Shown here: positions 10,965 through 60,539 of the stretch, piece after piece
Layout: every line of letters starts with the position of its first letter
Position numbering within the stretch: the first letter of the stretch is position 1
Notes under the pieces: model-generated
What the model was told of the DNA's origin: nothing
The model's database searches: none
The model's input: the letters and a program-made list of their open reading frames with translations, nothing else
Source: Thermoanaerobaculia bacterium
GTDB lineage: Bacteria; Acidobacteriota; Thermoanaerobaculia; UBA5066; Gp7-AA6
Assembly (NCBI GenBank): GCA_035457525.1
Contig: DATIBN010000033.1
Location: 1,061 to 65,060, forward strand
Direction of reading: 5' to 3'
Length of the DNA: 64,000 bases
Position numbers and translations under genes: made by a program

Positions 10965-11651
10965 TCAGTCCTCCTCCAGGTTGGGCGCGAGGAGGGAGAG
11001 ATCGGGGATCCGGAAGCCCTTCTTGTCCGTTTCGACGATCCCTTCCTTCTGCCACCGGCTCAGGATGCGGATCGAGGTCTCGACGGTCGTGCCGACCAGG
11101 TCGGCGATCTCCTGTCGGGAAAGCGCGATCGGGATGAAAATCCCGTCCTTCGTTTTCTGTCCGACCCGCTCGGCCAGCGTCGAGAAAAGACGGCCGATGC
11201 GGATCTCGACGGAGCCCGTCATGTCGGCCATCCGGCGGTTCAGGGCCATCAGGCGCATCGTCAGGCCGGCGAGCAGCCGGCGCGTGATCTCGGGACGCTT
11301 CTCCAGAAGCGAGAAGAACTCGCGGCTCGGGATCGAGATGACGCCCGACGGCTCGAGCGCGATCGCGGTCGCCGGGAAGGGCCGGCGCTCGTAGACGGCC
11401 ACCGCCCCCACCGGTTCGCCCGGGCCGAGGATCTCGAGGATCAGGTCCCGGTCCCCGGCCGACTTGACGATCTTGACGCGCCCGAGGAACAGGAAGTGGA
11501 TGTGGTTGGCGGGATCTCCCTCCTCGAAGATCGTCGCTCCCTTCTCGTAGGCGGCGAGCTCGCAGAGCGGCTCGAGCGCCCGGCGGTCGTCTTCCGTGAG
11601 CGAGAGCAGGACCGGGATCGCGTTGAACGGAATCGGCGGGCGCGGCGACAC
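10965..11651 (-). CDS. Crp/Fnr family transcriptional regulator
   Basis: N-terminal cNMP-binding beta-roll and C-terminal HTH (RQEIADLVGTTVETSIRILSRW). No Fnr-type N-terminal Cys cluster. Confidence 0.85.
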   Translation of the reverse strand: MSPRPPIPFNAIPVLLSLTEDDRRALEPLCELAAYEKGATIFEEGDPANHIHFLFLGRVKIVKSAGDRDLILEILGPGEPVGAVAVYERRPFPATAIALEPSGVISIPSREFFSLLEKRPEITRRLLAGLTMRLMALNRRMADMTGSVEIRIGRLFSTLAERVGQKTKDGIFIPIALSRQEIADLVGTTVETSIRILSRWQKEGIVETDKKGFRIPDLSLLAPNLEED

Positions 11652-11674
11652 GCGGGGATTATGGCGCGGTCAGC

Positions 11675-11810
11675 CCCCTCACCCCGGCCCTCTCCCCGCC
11701 AGATCGGGGTCAGGTCTCCACTTGCCACTTCGCGCCGCGAAGTGGCAAGTCCGTTGCCGTCAAGTCGGAACTGACGCGACTCGTGAATACCTGACCCCGC
11801 GGGGAGAGGG
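11675..11810. repeat. GC-rich hairpin repeat with a nested MITE-like palindromic insertion
   Basis: Arms ccctctccccgc (11688-99) and gcggggagaggg (11799-810) flank a ~93-bp insert. The insert has 10-bp TIRs (ggggtcaggt / acctgacccc) and an inner perfect 15-bp-arm palindrome (11720-11750). The leader cccctcaccccggccc matches the repeat at 50263. Confidence 0.5.
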
Positions 11811-12182
11811 AGTACCTGCGGCGCCGCGTTCGCTTCGCGCGCGGCGCGGCTGGAGCAAAGGAAACGGGCCGGTCGGACGCCCGAGACGCGCCTGGGAGGG
11901 CGGCGTCTAGACCGGCCCGTGGAACGGGGAGAAACCGATCTGCTCCGGGGCCGAGCGTCGCGGTGGAGCGGGGCATGTCACCGCGGGACCGCTGGCGGAA
12001 GTCCGGGTCAGGGAAAAACCCGGAGAAAGGGGGGAGGCAGATCGGGAGTGATGCCGGTGTTCGCGATTCGAGTCAATGGCGCAAGAGCGTCCGGCCCGAT
12101 GAGTCGAGCCCTGCTTCGGATTTCGCGTTCCGTTCATCCTCTCCCCTGGTCCGGGATACTCGTCCACCCCGTTGACGCCGGT

Positions 12183-12200
12183 CTGATGAGAATTCATCAG
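12183..12200. promoter_or_regulatory. 18-bp palindrome CTGATG-N6-CATCAG (copy 2 of 5)
   Basis: ctgatgagaattcatcag, overlapping the 3' end of the NnrS-family gene. Confidence 0.35.
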
Positions 12201-14011
12201 ACGCCGTGCACCGGCAGGGTCGACTGGAAGGAAGGCTTTTTGCGGACCGGCGGGCGCGGCTTCTCGCGGCCGCGCATCGTCCGGAACAGGTTGAACATGA
12301 AGAGCACGAGCGCGAGCACGACGGGGATGCCCATCCAGGAGCCGATCTCGTAGAAGACGGGCCGGAAAGCCGCCGGGTACTGCAGGAGCCTCATCGCCGC
12401 GCCGCCGAGCAGGAGGCCGTAGGTCACGCGCGCGAGCGCCGGCGACCAGAGACGCTTTCCCGAGAACACCGGCAGGATTCGGAAGCTCATCCCGACGATC
12501 AGGAGCGTGAGGAATCCGATCGTGAAAACGTGCCGGCCGGCGTCCGCCCACCAGAGGTTCTGCGCCGGGATCCGCGTGGTGCGGGAGAGAGCCACGGCCG
12601 CGAGCTCCAGGACCGCCCAGAGGCCGAGGCACGCGAACGCCGAGCGGATCGCGAACGTCGGCGATCCCGGAGCCTTCATGGCCGGGAGCTTCGGCTTCCT
12701 CCAGAGGAAGCCGTTTCCGCCGAGATAGACGACCGCCGACAGGGCCGCGAGCACCAGGCCTGCGTCGCGCAGAGCGAGGCCGGCGGCCGGCGCGAGGAAG
12801 GGGAGCCACCCCGCGCAGTAGAGCGGCCCGGCCGCGATCTGCAGGACCATGGCGGTCTCCGGCGTGCCGCGCCGCGCGGGGCCGAGCCCGAGGAACAGAG
12901 ACACCACCCGGTTCCCGAAGCCGTAGATCCAGGCGAGCAGGAATCCGTAGAGCGCCAGGAAATAGAAGGTCTCGTTCAGGGCGGTGGGCAGGGAAGTCTC
13001 GTGATGTCCCGCGAGCCAGATGCCCTGGGCTCCCAGGACGACGAGAGCGGCGGCGAAGAAGGCGGTCCCGATGGCGACGAACCGCAGGATCGGGTCCTTC
13101 CGGTCGTACTTGCCGGCCGGCATCTCCGAGAAGAGCGAGAAGACGAACGTGACGAAGAGAACGCCCGCCGCGAGCTCAATCGCCGCGGAGAGAAAGGAGA
13201 TCACGCGGCCGATCGGATAGAAGCCGAGCGGCTGGCCGACGTTCCTCAGGATCACTCCCCCGAACATGAGCCAGAACGCGACGCGCGACGACTTCGGGGT
13301 CCGGCTTCCGATCCCGAGGATTCGCGGCAGGGCGTGGTACGCGATCCCCATCAGGAAGAGCGCGGCGAAGCCGAGGACCTGCGTGTGACCATGGATCTGG
13401 CGGTGGGACAGCGGGACTTCGGCTCCCGCCGCGATCCGCAGGAGGTTGATCATCCCGGTCGTCGCGCCGAGCGTGAGCGTCAGGAAGAGGCTCCCGAGGA
13501 TGAAGTGCGGCGAGAACGGGCGGGCCGAGGTCGCGGGAACGGGAGGCGCCGCCGCGGTGTCGCGCACGGCGGCTTCGCGAAGGTCGCGGAGGAACTCCTC
13601 GAGCGGAAGCCGGTGCACCGTGGCGAACCAGGCGACCGGCTCGTCGGGCCCCTCGGGTCCGCCGCAGTCTCCGAGCCCGTAGCGCTCGAAGACCGGCGCC
13701 GTCCCCGGGAAGCGTCGGCGGATCTCGCGGATCGACATCGTCGGGGGAACGATGGCGTGGGCCTCCGCCGCACGATGCGCGGACTGGAGATCGGCCACGA
13801 CGTCCTCGAGAGGCTCCCCGCGCGCCGCGCACGCCTGCGCCAGCGGGTGCTCGCCGCCGCAGCAGGTGTCGAGGCCTCGCGCCGCGAGAGCGGACGAGAG
13901 GTGGGGCATCCGGGCGAGGATCTCCCGGACCGGCATCCGCGGATCGATGGCTCCCGGTTCCATGGTCCGACGATCTCTCCGGAGGGGGCCCCGCGCCATG
14001 ACGCCGGTCAT
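12197..14011 (-). CDS. DUF1858 (x2)-NnrS family membrane protein
   Basis: Two N-terminal DUF1858-like modules (MPVREILARMPHL...GLDTCCGGEHPL; MSIREIRRRFPGTAPVFERYGLGDCGGP) followed by a ~12-TM NnrS-like domain. Exact start uncertain. Confidence 0.65.
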   Translation of the reverse strand: MTGVMARGPLRRDRRTMEPGAIDPRMPVREILARMPHLSSALAARGLDTCCGGEHPLAQACAARGEPLEDVVADLQSAHRAAEAHAIVPPTMSIREIRRRFPGTAPVFERYGLGDCGGPEGPDEPVAWFATVHRLPLEEFLRDLREAAVRDTAAAPPVPATSARPFSPHFILGSLFLTLTLGATTGMINLLRIAAGAEVPLSHRQIHGHTQVLGFAALFLMGIAYHALPRILGIGSRTPKSSRVAFWLMFGGVILRNVGQPLGFYPIGRVISFLSAAIELAAGVLFVTFVFSLFSEMPAGKYDRKDPILRFVAIGTAFFAAALVVLGAQGIWLAGHHETSLPTALNETFYFLALYGFLLAWIYGFGNRVVSLFLGLGPARRGTPETAMVLQIAAGPLYCAGWLPFLAPAAGLALRDAGLVLAALSAVVYLGGNGFLWRKPKLPAMKAPGSPTFAIRSAFACLGLWAVLELAAVALSRTTRIPAQNLWWADAGRHVFTIGFLTLLIVGMSFRILPVFSGKRLWSPALARVTYGLLLGGAAMRLLQYPAAFRPVFYEIGSWMGIPVVLALVLFMFNLFRTMRGREKPRPPVRKKPSFQSTLPVHGV

Positions 14012-31558: not shown

Positions 31559-31840
31559 ATGAAAAAGAGCGGGTCGAAGATCGGATTCATTGCACTGGCA
31601 TTTTTCTGGGCCGGCTGGATGGCTTTGACGTCCGTGTCGACCGCGACACTTCCGATCCAGAAGAAGGCGAAGGAAGCCGGGTATCCGGCGACCAACTGCC
31701 AGTACTGCCACGTCGAGAAGCTCCCGAAGAAGGGGGCCGTGTCGCACAACGAGCGTGGCAAATGGCTGATCGCCGAAAAGGCAAAGCGGAAAGCGGCCGA
31801 GGTGGATGCCGCCTGGCTGAAGGATTACCCGGGCAAGTAA
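31559..31840 (+). CDS. small secreted single-CxxCH protein, paralog 1 (putative monoheme cytochrome c)
   Basis: MKKSGSKIGFIALAFFWAGWMALTSVSTATLPIQKKAKE...NCQYCH...WLKDYPGK. Highly similar to the ORFs at 35408 and 38600. Confidence 0.6.
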   Translation: MKKSGSKIGFIALAFFWAGWMALTSVSTATLPIQKKAKEAGYPATNCQYCHVEKLPKKGAVSHNERGKWLIAEKAKRKAAEVDAAWLKDYPGK

Positions 31841-31851
31841 GAACCGGGGAT

Positions 31852-35407: not shown

Positions 35408-35707
35408 GAGGAACCAATGAACAGCGGAAAATCGCGCGTCGCCCTCGTTGCGCTCGTCCTCTTCTGGGTCGGCTGGATGGCGTTCACCTCGACATCGTCG
35501 GCGACCCTCCCCATGCAGAAGAAGGCGAAAGAGCTGGGCATCACCGGAGTGACGGACTGCCTGTCCTGCCATGGCGAGAAGATGCCCAAGAAGGGCGCCT
35601 CGACTCTGAACGACCGCGGCAAGTGGCTCGTGGCCGAGAAGGAGAAGAGGGGAGTGAAGGAAATCGACGTCGCCTGGCTGAAGGATTACCCGGGCGACAA
35701 GAAGTAG
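35408..35707 (+). CDS. small secreted single-CxxCH protein, paralog 2
   Basis: MNSGKSRVALVALVLFWVGWMAFTSTSSATLPMQKKAKE...DCLSCH...WLKDYPGDKK. Confidence 0.6.
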   Translation, partial: EEPMNSGKSRVALVALVLFWVGWMAFTSTSSATLPMQKKAKELGITGVTDCLSCHGEKMPKKGASTLNDRGKWLVAEKEKRGVKEIDVAWLKDYPGDKK

Positions 35708-38599: not shown

Positions 38600-38890
38600 A
38601 TGAAGAAACCCGACTCGCGCCTCGCCGCGACCGCGCTCGTACTGTTCTCGGCCGGATGGATCGCGCTGACAGCGTCCTCGACGGCAACGATGCCCCTGCA
38701 GAAAAAAGCGAAGGAGCTGGGCTTCTCCGCCGACAACTGCCTCTACTGCCACAACGAGAAGCTGCCGAAGAAGGGCGCCGTGACGCAGAACGGCCGGGGA
38801 GAGTGGCTCATCGCCGAGAAGGAGAAGAGACACGCCAAGGAAGTCGACGTGACCTGGCTGAAGTACTACCCGGAGGAAAAGAAGAAGTAG
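38600..38890 (+). CDS. small secreted single-CxxCH protein, paralog 3
   Basis: MKKPDSRLAATALVLFSAGWIALTASSTATMPLQKKAKE...NCLYCH...WLKYYPEEKKK. Confidence 0.6.
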   Translation: MKKPDSRLAATALVLFSAGWIALTASSTATMPLQKKAKELGFSADNCLYCHNEKLPKKGAVTQNGRGEWLIAEKEKRHAKEVDVTWLKYYPEEKKK

Positions 38891-50262: not shown

Positions 50263-50301
50263 CCCCTCACCCCCGGCCCCCTCTCCCCGGCGGGGAGAGG
50301 G
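50263..50301. terminator. GC-rich hairpin repeat (second copy) acting as a likely bidirectional terminator between convergent acs and bfr
   Basis: cccctcacccccggcc + ccctctccccg / cggggagaggg hairpin. The same leader and arms occur at 11675-11810. Confidence 0.5.
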
Positions 50302-59597: not shown

Positions 59598-60002
59598 ATG
59601 GCAAAAGAAGTGAGAATCCAACTGACCCCCGAGCAGAAGGCCAAGATCAAGGCGGCCACCGGAAAGACCATGGGCGAGATCCGGGTGACCAGTCTGGGCA
59701 AGAACCTGGCCGTTTCACCCAGCCAGCAGACGACCAAGCTCGGCGCCCAGGACATGAGCATCGGCGCGCAGGACATGAGCATCGGCGCGCAGGACCTGAG
59801 CATCGGCGCCCAGGACATGAGCATCGGCGCGCAGGACCTCACCGCGCAGGACCTCACCGCGAAGGATCTCAGCGCGAAGGATCTCACGGCGAAAGACCTC
59901 ACCGCGAAGGACCTCACCGCGAAGGATCTCAGCGCGAAGGATCTCAGCGCGAAGGACCTCACGGCGAAGGATCTCACCGCGAAGGATCTCCGCCAGGCTT
60001 GA
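59598..60002 (+). CDS. small tandem-repeat protein (GAQDMSI x4, then AKDL[TS] x ~10)
   Basis: MAKEVRIQLTPEQKAKIKAATGKTMGEIRV N-terminal module, then low-complexity heptad and pentad repeats. Strong SD. Confidence 0.55.
   Translation: MAKEVRIQLTPEQKAKIKAATGKTMGEIRVTSLGKNLAVSPSQQTTKLGAQDMSIGAQDMSIGAQDLSIGAQDMSIGAQDLTAQDLTAKDLSAKDLTAKDLTAKDLTAKDLSAKDLSAKDLTAKDLTAKDLRQA
59741..59993 (+). repeat. coding tandem DNA repeats (21-bp x4, then 15-bp x ~10)
   Basis: Units gcgcgcaggacatgagcatcg and gcgaaggatctcacc with variants, read directly in the sequence. Confidence 0.7.
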
Positions 60003-60026
60003 CGTTCCGATTCTCTCGAAGCGAAA

Positions 60027-60049
60027 GCCCCGCACCCGCGGGGCTTTTT
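60027..60049 (+). terminator. intrinsic terminator
   Basis: gccccgc-accc-gcggggc followed by ttttt. Confidence 0.6.
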
Positions 60050-60071
60050 GTTTGGTCGATGCTGGCCTTCG

Positions 60072-60093
60072 ATCGTTGACTAATCGTTGACTA
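60072..60093. promoter_or_regulatory. perfect 11-bp tandem direct repeat ATCGTTGACTA x2 (possible enhancer/UAS)
   Basis: Located 115-135 bp upstream of the second sigma54-like -24 element, in an AT-richer tract. Confidence 0.3.
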
Positions 60094-60206
60094 AATCATC
60101 CAGGGCTCAGAAATTCAGCCATCCCGGGTGCCGTGGCTGGGCCGCAGCGGGGAGCTATCTCTCTGCAGGAGCGCGAGGTCGGGGGCGGGCCGGTCGGTTT
60201 GCGAAT

Positions 60207-60222
60207 TGGTCCCCGAATTGCG
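60207..60222 (+). promoter_or_regulatory. putative sigma54 (-24/-12) promoter of repeat-protein gene 2
   Basis: TGGTCCccgaaTTGCG. Both hexamer and pentamer are identical to the promoter at 59551, with identical spacing. Confidence 0.5.
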
Positions 60223-60254
60223 AGGAGTCTTCCGGAGGAAAGGAGGTGACACCG

Positions 60255-60539
60255 ATGGCCGAGAAAGAGGTGAAGGTCGAGCTGACGGAGGCCCAGAGGG
60301 AGAAGATTCGCGAGGCTCTCCCCGATGCCAGAGAGCTGTCCGCCCGGGACACCCGGATTGCGGCGCAGGATCTGAGGGCGCAGGACCTGAGCGCGAAGGA
60401 CACGAGCATCCAGGCCGAGGACCTGAGCGCGAAGGACACGAGCATCCAGGCGGAAGATCTCTCGGCGAAGGACTTGAGCGCGAAGGACACGAGCATCCAG
60501 TCGGAAGACCTGAGCTACGGCGACGACGAGTCCTTCTAA
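60255..60539 (+). CDS. small tandem-repeat protein, paralog 2 (AKDTSIQAEDLS repeats)
   Basis: MAEKEVKVELTEAQREKIREALPDARE N-terminus is paralogous to the 59598 gene. 30-nt repeat units x3. AAGGAGGTGA SD. Confidence 0.55.
   Translation: MAEKEVKVELTEAQREKIREALPDARELSARDTRIAAQDLRAQDLSAKDTSIQAEDLSAKDTSIQAEDLSAKDLSAKDTSIQSEDLSYGDDESF

What the first reader, a model, noticed from the sequence alone, without database searches (positions are those of the whole stretch)
11675..11810. GC-rich hairpin repeat family in two copies, one empty and one carrying a ~100-bp MITE-like palindromic insertion
At 50263-50301 the sequence cccctcacccccggcc-ccctctccccg-gc-ggggagaggg forms a simple hairpin between convergent acs and bfr. 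At 11675-11810 the same leader and the same arms (ccctctccccgc ... gcggggagaggg) are separated by ~93 bp. That insert is bounded by 10-bp terminal inverted repeats (ggggtcaggt / acctgacccc) and contains a perfect 15-bp-arm palindrome (acttgccacttcgcg c cgcgaagtggcaagt). The whole structure sits in a 546-bp non-coding gap. The pattern looks like a small non-autonomous element inserted into a REP-like hairpin, or a structured ncRNA locus.
Basis: seen in the sequence. Interest (0 to 1): 0.55.

Follow-up and report, generated by a model that had tools for sequence, protein, structure and literature searches.

The report
Repeat element nested in triplex-motif hairpin
A known kind of GC-rich hairpin repeat (the BoxC / triplex motif first seen in E. 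coli) has had a 93-base self-folding repeat element copied into its loop; that element belongs to a previously undescribed small repeat family of soil Acidobacteria, which is a modest addition to known kinds rather than a new kind of system.

Summary
I split the structure into two nested parts.

**Outer hairpin and "leader".** Read on the minus strand, this is a BoxC/PIT/TMECO intrastrand-triplex (G4-hairpin) motif. Its G-rich half is the exact E. coli type-B 21-mer, GGGAGAGGGCCGGGGTGAGGG. The copy at 50263-50301 is an uninterrupted variant.

**Insert (11706-11798).**
- It belongs to a roughly 93-nt repeat family with no match in Rfam, plasmid, phage or literature searches.
- Its layout is 16-nt terminal inverted repeats (GGGGTCAGGTCTYCAC), a near-invariant 14-15-bp palindrome, a 33-nt variable segment and a conserved right end.
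- I found about 30 copies in soil Thermoanaerobaculia contigs, in 11 unrelated gene contexts.
- Only the window copy sits inside a hairpin.
- No target-site duplication or nearby transposase was found, and copy density is low.
- Truncated left-end units often occur in tandem beside it.

**tolQ-tolR junction.** Related genomes show empty, filled (both orientations) and remnant alleles. There the variable segment diverges like synonymous sites (0.59 vs 0.63 identity). The ends and palindrome stay about 94% identical.

**Best reading.** A dispersed, occasionally mobile palindromic element was copied into the loop of a triplex-motif hairpin. How it moves is unknown. A conserved functional RNA or DNA module is not excluded.

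The parts
11674..11685 (-). Triplex-motif block 3. Minus strand reads GGGGTGAGGGGG.
   Evidence: Part of the exact 21-mer GGGAGAGGGCCGGGGTGAGGG at 11676-11696(-). This equals E. coli TMECO type B / HPG2.
11688..11699 (-). Triplex-motif block 2, the G-rich hairpin arm. Minus strand reads GCGGGGAGAGGG.
   Evidence: (I1)
11700..11705 (.). 6-nt linker CAGATC (GATCTG on the minus strand). Probably residual loop 1 of the hairpin, or outer flank of the insert.
   Evidence: The same GATCTG follows CCTGACCCC in L099.
11706..11721 (+). Left terminal inverted repeat GGGGTCAGGTCTCCAC.
11720..11750 (.). Perfect palindrome (P2), ACTTGCCACTTCGCG-C-CGCGAAGTGGCAAGT. Near-invariant across the family.
   Evidence: (I3)
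11750..11782 (+). 33-nt variable segment. It forms a hairpin in this copy and is closest to the tolQ-tolR copies (76% identity to L020).
11783..11798 (+). Right end GTGAATACCTGACCCC, the inverted copy of the left TIR.
11799..11810 (-). Triplex-motif block 1, the C-rich hairpin arm. Minus strand reads CCCTCTCCCCGC.
50263..50301 (-). Uninterrupted triplex-motif copy. Minus strand reads CCCTCTCCCC-GCC-GGGGAGAGGGGG-CC-GGGGGTGAGGGG.
   Evidence: It matches the TMECO pattern only when loop 2 is relaxed to 3-6 nt.
11658..11663 (-). -10-like CATAAT, 6 nt upstream of the crp-like GTG at 11651-11649. Relatives have TATAAT here. The triplex motif abuts the region where a -35 element would lie.
   Evidence: This rests on sequence inspection only. 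The consensus promoter scan found nothing.
10965..11651 (-). Crp/Fnr-family regulator gene. Its start is 54 nt from the element's left end (11706).
12197..14011 (-). ScdA_N-DUF1858-NnrS fusion gene, upstream in the direction of transcription.
   Evidence: It is 100% identical to HSE62355.1 from a Thermoanaerobaculia MAG.

Best explanation
**What it is.** Window 11674-11810 is a BoxC/PIT/TMECO-type intrastrand-triplex (G4-hairpin) motif. It has been interrupted by a 93-nt copy (11706-11798) of a dispersed palindromic repeat element, at the junction between the C-rich arm and loop 1. The element family is found in soil Thermoanaerobaculia (Acidobacteriota).

**Element anatomy (shown).** The element folds on itself.
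- Its 16-nt terminal inverted repeats form a 10-12-bp closing stem.
- Inside is a near-invariant 14-15-bp palindrome and a 33-nt variable segment.
- Because it folds this way, the two arms of the host hairpin can still pair around it.

**Origin (inferred).** The copy was made in a recent ancestor of this strain cluster from a tolQ-tolR-type family member.
- It could have been made by an unidentified transposase or recombinase that recognises the conserved ends and palindrome.
- It could instead have been made by replication template switching. The G4/C4 microhomology between the element termini (GGGG...CCCC) and the hairpin arms (CCCCGC/GCGGGG) might favour this.

**Effect here (inferred).** Its effect is probably neutral. 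At most it alters the hairpin-rich spacer between a conserved upstream block and the promoter of the crp-like gene.
For: **The hairpin is the known motif.**
- The exact E. coli type-B 21-mer lies at 11676-11696(-).
- Copy B matches the published pattern with a longer loop 2.
- Published sequences and history are in PMC4666352 and PMC5100583.
- An E. coli example was retrieved directly.

**The insert is a discrete family.**
- There are 3 true hits in GTDB genomes and 24 in JGI soil metagenomes, all with the same anatomy.
- More copies were found independently of any DNA pattern, through neighbouring proteins.
- The copies lie in 11 unrelated housekeeping contexts with no transposase nearby.

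**The two units are separable.**
- Only the window copy has complementary flanks: -29.3 kcal/mol against a control of -11.0 +/- 4.8.
- No triplex motif occurs in 277 kb of related contigs except at the orthologous site.

**There is evidence of movement.**
- The window's variable segment groups with tolQ-tolR copies although it sits at a different locus.
- The 'ACCAG' subfamily occupies at least 5 contexts.
- The tolQ-tolR junction shows empty, filled(+), filled(-) and remnant states. Filled and empty alleles are interspersed within a population of at least 96% identity.

**This locus gained or lost the structure recently.** The whole structure is present in W, L064 and L001/L002 and absent in L039, which is 94.7% identical across crp.
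Against: - No target-site duplication or conserved target was found.
- No autonomous element or transposase was found in about 0.28 Mb of flanking DNA.
- Copy density is low. There is 1 copy in the 64-kb window, 1 hit per GTDB MAG, and no second independent copy in any locus.
- At the orthologous tolQ-tolR site the ends and palindrome stay about 94% identical. The variable segment (0.59) diverges like synonymous sites (0.63). This looks like purifying selection on a functional module rather than decay of a selfish insertion.
- No relative with an uninterrupted triplex motif at the crp locus was found. Insertion into a resident hairpin is therefore not directly shown.
Confidence: 0.6

Rival explanations
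1. The 93-nt unit is a functional module kept by the host, either a structured RNA or a protein-binding DNA/RNA site. One possible role is as an intercistronic or 3'-UTR hairpin that tunes mRNA stability or translational coupling, for example the TolQ:TolR ratio. On this view the module is only occasionally duplicated to new sites, including this hairpin loop.
For: - The ends and palindrome are about 94% identical across hosts whose exbD third codon positions are only 63% identical. The variable segment drifts at the neutral rate while keeping its length of 33 +/- 2 nt.
- Copy number per genome is low.
- Copies lie 0-12 nt from stop and start codons inside operons.
- One-sided changes in the palindrome lean towards G-U wobble on the transcribed strand, 5 against 2.
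Against: - No pair in P1 or P2 covaries, because nothing varies on both sides.
- The variable segment is not consistently a hairpin (mean z = -0.64).
- Counted by independent context, orientation relative to transcription is 8 against 4, which is not significant.
- Both orientations occur at the same tolQ-tolR junction.
- Empty and remnant alleles are tolerated in close relatives.
- Neighbouring genes are functionally unrelated.
- There is no Rfam match.
- The wobble count is too small to weigh.
Confidence: 0.25
2. The element is a site for an unidentified site-specific recombinase or invertase, or for a REP-type (RAYT-like) enzyme. The conserved ends, the palindrome and the tandem 25-nt end units would be its binding sites. 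The flipped orientation at tolQ-tolR would reflect in-place inversion.
For: - There are 16-nt inverted ends plus 1-3 tandem truncated left-end units (GGGGTCAGGTCTCCACTTGCCAC + AT). Their number varies between near-identical loci: L003 has 1 and L033 has 3.
- Both orientations occur at one junction.
- Conservation is at the level of sequence rather than structure.
Against: - No recombinase or RAYT gene lies next to any copy.
- There is no REP-type GTAG motif.
- Density is far below that of REP/REPIN families.
- The flipped alleles also differ in their outer flanks and in stop and start codons, which simple inversion does not explain.
Confidence: 0.1
3. There was no insertion. The 135-nt structure is one native long hairpin, or a terminator-like element, that arose in place. 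Its similarity to the 50.3-kb hairpin would be coincidental GC-rich sequence.
For: - The whole region folds as one coaxial hairpin.
- The spacer upstream of crp carries a different GC-rich hairpin in each relative.
Against: - The inner 93 nt recur as a unit in 11 other contexts without these arms.
- The arms plus third block are an exact match to a described repeat family.
- No U-tract terminator is detected.
Confidence: 0.03

Closest known systems
BoxC / PIT element / TMECO intrastrand triplex motif (Holder et al. 2015, NAR, PMC4666352), also described as the HPG2 'G-quadruplex-hairpin-duplex switch' (Kaplan et al. 2016, NAR, PMC5100583)
   Same: - The outer hairpin has the same three-block architecture: CCCTCNCCC - loop - GGGNGAGGG - loop - GGGNGAGGG.
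- Copy A carries the exact type-B 21-mer GGGAGAGGGCCGGGGTGAGGG.
- It is intergenic.
- Loci carrying the motif are described as hot spots of intergenic change.
   Different: - The host is a Thermoanaerobaculia MAG. The TMECO survey reported proteobacterial genomes.
- Copy A's loop 1 is 105 nt because of the insert, against 3-6 nt in the published pattern.
- Copy B has longer G/C runs and a 6-nt loop 2.
- Holder et al. found no association with mobile elements.
Bacterial MITEs and small palindromic intergenic repeats (Correia/NEMIS, ERIC/IRU, RUP, BOX, RPE)
   Same: - About 90-100 nt, with terminal inverted repeats, non-coding and self-complementary.
- Dispersed in intergenic and intercistronic sites.
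- Occasionally fused in frame to a gene end, as at pepA in L009 and L017. This is like RPE and ERIC.
- Modular repetition of one sub-unit, like boxB in BOX elements. This comparison rests on my own knowledge of these families.
   Different: - No target-site duplication.
- No known parent insertion sequence.
- Very low density.
- The ends and palindrome are conserved at orthologous sites across diverged hosts.
REP / BIME / REPIN elements mobilised by RAYT transposases
   Same: - Inverted doublet of a roughly 16-23-nt unit forming a hairpin of about 100 nt.
- Solitary units ('singlets') lie next to doublets.
- Extragenic and vertically persistent.
   Different: - No GTAG-type 5' motif.
- Copy number is orders of magnitude lower.
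- No RAYT gene was seen, although whole genomes could not be searched.
MIRU-type intercistronic tandem repeats of mycobacteria
   Same: - Sits between adjacent cistrons a few bases from the stop and start codons.
- The number of short tandem units varies.
   Different: - MIRUs are direct tandem repeats with one fixed orientation and small overlapping ORFs.
- This element is a palindrome found in both orientations.

Membership tests
BoxC/PIT/TMECO triplex motif | C-rich block CCCTCNCCC | tested here: met
   Minus strand CCCTCTCCC in both copies.
BoxC/PIT/TMECO triplex motif | Loop 1 of 3-6 nt | tested here: not met
   Copy B meets it (CGCCG). Copy A does not: its loop is 105 nt, consisting of the 93-nt element plus linker and the GC stem extensions. 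This is the anomaly under study.
BoxC/PIT/TMECO triplex motif | GGGNGAGGG - 3 nt - GGGNGAGGG | tested here: met
   Copy A has the exact E. coli type-B 21-mer at 11676-11696(-). Copy B has a 6-nt loop 2, so it fails the strict pattern and passes the relaxed one.
BoxC/PIT/TMECO triplex motif | Many copies per genome | tested here: inconclusive
   There are 2 copies in 64 kb. There are none in 277 kb of related contigs apart from the orthologous site. The whole genome was not available.
BoxC/PIT/TMECO triplex motif | Forms a triplex or G-quadruplex | not testable with these tools
   Needs CD/NMR or footprinting.
MITE | Terminal inverted repeats | tested here: met
   The 16-nt GGGGTCAGGTCTYCAC occurs at both ends in all copies.
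MITE | Target-site duplication | tested here: not met
   No direct repeat flanks any of about 20 distinct copies. L005 compared with the empty allele shows TAA|TTG becoming TAA-tgt-[element]-TTG.
MITE | Small and non-coding | tested here: met
   Length is 90-96 nt. One-base length changes in the palindrome loop break any reading frame.
MITE | Multiple dispersed copies within a genome | tested here: inconclusive
   There are 11 non-homologous contexts across related genomes. However, only 1 hit per MAG was found and no second copy in any locus.
MITE | Autonomous element with the same ends | not testable with these tools
   None was found in 0.28 Mb of flanks. The TIR scan of viral contigs gave only chance hits.
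REP/REPIN (RAYT-associated) | Conserved GTAG-type 5' motif on a short palindromic unit | tested here: not met
   Units start with GGGGTCAGG and contain no GTAG.
REP/REPIN (RAYT-associated) | Hundreds of copies, with a RAYT gene flanked by the repeats | tested here: not met
   Density is at most 1 per 64 kb. The presence of a RAYT gene could not be tested.
Rfam structured RNA families | Covariance-model match | tested here: not met
   Nothing reached the gathering score in the window. Only chance-level hits appeared at E <= 10 over the element in the window and in 6 other copies.
Intrinsic terminator | GC hairpin followed by a U tract | tested here: not met
   No terminator-like sites in 11500-12300. 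T runs follow only some other copies.
Integron attC site | RYYYAAC...GTTRRRY core sites, arrayed cassettes | tested here: not met
   The ends are GGGGTCAGG/CCTGACCCC, and there are no arrays: one cluster per locus.

The most novel reading that the evidence does not exclude
The 93-nt unit is not a selfish insertion. It would be a conserved functional nucleic-acid module of Thermoanaerobaculia, with sequence-specific ends and palindrome and a free 33-nt segment. Selection would have kept it at the tolQ-tolR junction since these species diverged, and it would be copied now and then to other sites. Its landing in the loop of a triplex/G4 motif would give a concrete example of how such motifs become hot spots of intergenic change.
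Probability: 0.25. Interest if true: 0.6.

Novelty: new member of a known kind. Interest (0 to 1): 0.4.

Why it matters
1. The finding extends the BoxC/TMECO triplex motif to an acidobacterial lineage, down to an exact 21-mer. That raises the question of how the same sequence comes to be in distant phyla.
2. It documents an undescribed small repeat family with an unusual evolutionary signature. The ends and palindrome are highly conserved, the middle drifts at a neutral rate, copy number is low, and filled and empty alleles coexist within one population.
3. It gives one explicit case of a repeat element lodged in the loop of a triplex motif. This bears on the reported, mechanistically unexplained instability of loci that carry such motifs.

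None of this overturns current understanding.

Tried and rejected
- **Known RNA families.** Rfam found nothing at gathering threshold or at E <= 10, in the window and in six other copies. The weak SAM-IV hit (E = 2.7) was not reproduced in the other copies.
- **Other collections.** BLAST of the element against plasmids and phages gave no match. The viral-contig scans gave 0 hits and then 28 chance hits inside genes.
- **Literature.** Searching for the element's sequences found nothing.
- **Diverged copies.** A covariance model built from 24 copies found no extra copy in the window or in the loci.
- **Third hairpin.** A conserved hairpin in the variable segment was not supported overall.
- **Orientation bias.** My first count of 17:2 came from counting orthologous loci repeatedly. 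By independent context it is 8:4.
- **L001 variant.** The 5 mismatches in 26 nt were not usable as a covariation test. L001 and L065 both end at the palindrome centre with odd mismatches, while L064 spans the element cleanly. The variant is probably an assembly or sequencing artefact.
- **Insertion preference for hairpins.** Rejected, because only the window copy has complementary flanks.
- **Target-site duplication or conserved outer flank.** None found.
- **Cross-phylum spread.** L008 is labelled Actinomycetota, but its exbD is 83% identical at the nucleotide level to that of a Thermoanaerobaculia MAG (L003; 79-89% to the other tolQ-tolR loci). The label is doubtful.
- **Empty triplex motif at the crp locus.** Not found. 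L039, L035 and L038 lack both parts.

Full report
**1. Observation**

- Copy A has arms CCCTCTCCCCGC (11688-11699) and GCGGGGAGAGGG (11799-11810), preceded by CCCCCTCACCCC (11674-11685).
- Between the arms lie CAGATC and a 93-nt unit (11706-11798).
- The unit is bounded by GGGGTCAGGT and ACCTGACCCC and contains a perfect palindrome with 15-nt arms (11720-11734 and 11736-11750).
- Copy B (50263-50301) has the same blocks with a minimal loop. It lies between convergent acetyl-CoA synthetase and ferritin-like genes.
- The 545-nt gap 11652-12196 lies between a Crp/Fnr regulator gene and a ScdA_N-DUF1858-NnrS fusion gene, both on the minus strand.
- Folding either strand gives z-scores of -6 to -7.6, and none of 200 shuffles folds as well.
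- An independent JGI contig (L064) spans the identical structure with a single base difference, so it is not an assembly artefact.

**2. The outer hairpin is a known motif**

On the minus strand copy A reads CCCTCTCCCCGC-[loop]-GCGGGGAGAGGG-CC-GGGGTGAGGGGG.
- A literature search with this sequence led to two papers, Holder et al. 2015 (PMC4666352) and Kaplan et al. 2016 (PMC5100583).
- The motif was first described as BoxC, then as PIT, and then as the 'TMECO' intrastrand triplex motif. Its pattern is CCCTCNCCC-N3-6-GGGNGAGGG-N3-GGGNGAGGG.
- E. coli type B is CCCTCTCCC-TGT-GGGAGAGGG-CCG-GGGTGAGGG. Its G-rich 21-mer is also the 'HPG2' G-quadruplex-hairpin switch.
- That exact 21-mer occurs at 11676-11696(-), against 0 expected.
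- Copy B fits the pattern once loop 2 is allowed 6 nt.
- I also retrieved an E. coli instance directly, between cpsG and wcaJ.
- Holder et al. report that such loci are unusually variable in their intergenic DNA. They saw no link to mobile elements, and the mechanism is unknown.

**3. The insert is a member of a repeat family**

*How copies were found.*
- A 20-nt pattern from the left half of the insert found three true copies in GTDB genomes. Two MAGs are labelled Thermoanaerobaculia and one Actinomycetota.
- A 19-nt pattern found 24 true copies in JGI soil metagenomes.
- Further copies were reached without any DNA pattern, through neighbouring proteins.

*Shared anatomy*.
- GGGGTCAGGTCTCCAC, then TTGCCACTTCGCG-(1-3 nt)-CGCGAAGTGGCAAG.
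- Then a variable stretch of 30-35 nt, mostly 33.
- Then (Y)CGTGAAKACCTGACCCC.
- The left arm of the palindrome is invariant by ascertainment in the pattern-derived set. The first 11 nt, the right arm and the right end were free to vary and are still near-invariant.

*Truncated end units.*
- Many copies are preceded by 1-3 truncated left ends (GGGGTCAGGTCTCCACTTGCCAC + AT..), with a 25-27-nt period.
- Their number differs between near-identical loci: L003 has one and L033 has three.
- Some copies have an extra inverted end next to them.

*What was not found.*
- No Rfam family matches.
- Nothing similar is in the plasmid or phage collections.
- The literature search for the element's sequences found nothing.

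**4. Host and contexts**

- The NnrS-fusion protein is 100% identical to HSE62355.1 from a Thermoanaerobaculia MAG, on an 85.6-kb contig.
- The closest named Crp homologues are also from Thermoanaerobaculia or Acidobacteriota.
- The MAG labelled Actinomycetota has a tolR (exbD) gene 83% identical at the nucleotide level to that of the Thermoanaerobaculia MAG L003. Spread across phyla is therefore not established.

The copies fall into 11 non-homologous contexts:
- tolQ-tolR
- deoxynucleoside kinase-panB
- downstream of a V-type ATPase subunit
- downstream of a WXXGXW protein
- the 3' end of pepA
- DUF3108-T2SSE
- upstream of an aminotransferase gene
- upstream of a DedA/VTT gene
- upstream of an EamA gene
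- one unannotated pair
- the window's nnrS-crp spacer

No transposase lies nearby. In L009 and L017 the pepA reading frame runs through the element and stops at the TGA of the right end.

Density is low.
- No locus, and not the 64-kb window, holds a second independent copy.
- Each GTDB MAG gave a single hit.

**5. Tests of how it got here**

*Hairpin preference.* Only the window copy is flanked by complementary sequence (-29.3 kcal/mol against -11.0 +/- 4.8 for mismatched flank pairs). The family does not generally sit in hairpins, and this nesting is a one-off.

*Target site.* No target-site duplication or conserved outer flank exists.

*Source copy.* The window's variable segment is closest to the tolQ-tolR copies (76% to L020). 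This points to copying between non-homologous loci.

*This locus in relatives.*
- The structure is present in W, L064 and L001/L002.
- It is absent, together with the triplex motif, in L039 (crp 94.7% identical) and in L035 and L038. Each of these carries a different GC-rich hairpin in the same spacer.
- An orthologous 'triplex motif without insert' was not found.

*The tolQ-tolR junction in related genomes.*
- Empty alleles have stop and start adjacent: TAA|TTG or TAG|TTG.
- Filled alleles occur in both orientations.
- One remnant allele keeps only the last 35 nt.
- Within one population of at least 96% identity, with identical ExbD protein, filled and empty alleles are interspersed. They carry allele-specific stop and start codons.

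**6. Selfish repeat or functional module?**

*For a functional module.*
- Across six tolQ-tolR copies, exbD third codon positions are 63% identical and the element's variable segment 59%. The left end plus palindrome, and the right end, are each 94% identical.
- This includes L056, which was found independently of the DNA pattern.
- That is the signature of an old, vertically inherited copy whose ends and palindrome are under constraint or are homogenised.

*Against an RNA function.*
- No base pair covaries.
- The variable segment is not consistently a hairpin.
- Orientation relative to transcription is 8:4 by independent context.
- Loss is tolerated.
- One-sided changes in the palindrome lean 5:2 towards G-U wobble on the transcribed strand, which is too few to weigh.

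*Weighting.*
- 0.6: a dispersed, occasionally mobile palindromic element of unknown mechanism, here copied into the loop of a triplex motif.
- 0.25: a host-maintained RNA or DNA module.
- 0.1: a recombinase or RAYT-like site.
- Close to zero: a hairpin that arose in place.

**7. Verdict**

- The outer hairpin is already known.
- The insert is a new family of a known general kind.
- The nesting, the conservation pattern and the exact match of the 21-mer across phyla are modestly interesting.
- The mechanism of spread and any function remain unproven.

Noticed in passing
window 11860-12150 (minus strand); L035 2740-3000; L038 2660-2940 and 278-573; L064 3320-3615: A conserved block of about 290 nt lies between the nnrS-fusion gene and the triplex motif. 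A paralogous second copy lies upstream of the nnrS-fusion gene in L038. The consensus fold has 87 pairs, 12 of them with compensatory changes. All four diverged copies also keep an SD-like GGGGAGAGG + ATG and an open frame of 76-77 aa ending in (I/V)GFSPFHGPV*. Indels are in multiples of three, yet substitutions are spread evenly over codon positions. It is either a small unannotated gene or a structured RNA.
   Followed up: partly
window 11649-11663 (minus strand); L038, L039: The crp-like gene looks leaderless. A -10 box lies 6 nt upstream of the annotated GTG: TATAAT in relatives and CATAAT in the window. The spacer just upstream is hypervariable, with a different GC-rich hairpin in every relative.
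   Followed up: no
L098-L103, L094-L097 (tolQ-tolR junction): Within one population (96-99% nt identity, identical ExbD protein), filled and empty alleles are interspersed and differ in stop and start codons. The empty allele reads cacc TAG|TTG. The filled allele reads cact TGA-[element]-ATG. The indel therefore travels with its own stop and start, which suggests allele exchange by recombination rather than simple excision.
   Followed up: partly
L009 4583-6247; L017 1676-3364: The leucyl aminopeptidase (M17) reading frame continues through the whole element, including a 27-nt end unit in L009. It terminates at the TGA inside the right terminal repeat, adding 31-40 residues.
   Followed up: partly
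L001 1-30; L065 3725-3741: Short-read contigs from two samples stop exactly at the centre of the 31-nt palindrome and carry clustered mismatches at that end. L064 reads through cleanly. This is probably an assembly or sequencing artefact at a perfect hairpin.
   Followed up: yes
L008 (CAVRMH010000044.1): The MAG is labelled 'uncultured Actinomycetota'. Its tolQ-tolR-tonB-like operon has an exbD gene 83% identical at the nucleotide level to that of the Thermoanaerobaculia MAG L003 (79-89% to the other tolQ-tolR loci). The label or the binning is doubtful.
   Followed up: partly
window 12181-12202: A 9-bp hairpin, GTCTGATGA-ATTC-TCATCAGAC, overlaps the stop codon of the nnrS-fusion gene. It is conserved in L035, L038 and L064.
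   Followed up: no
window 59719-60520: Tandem repeats of 21 nt and 15 nt, with at least 10 copies of CGCGAAGGAYCTCAS. This is probably a coding pentapeptide-type repeat.
   Followed up: no
window 31587-31846, 35445-35707, 38628-38887: Three paralogous segments spaced about 3.2-3.9 kb apart. Recurring TGCCAC (CxxCH-like) motifs nearby suggest tandem multihaem cytochrome paralogues.
   Followed up: no
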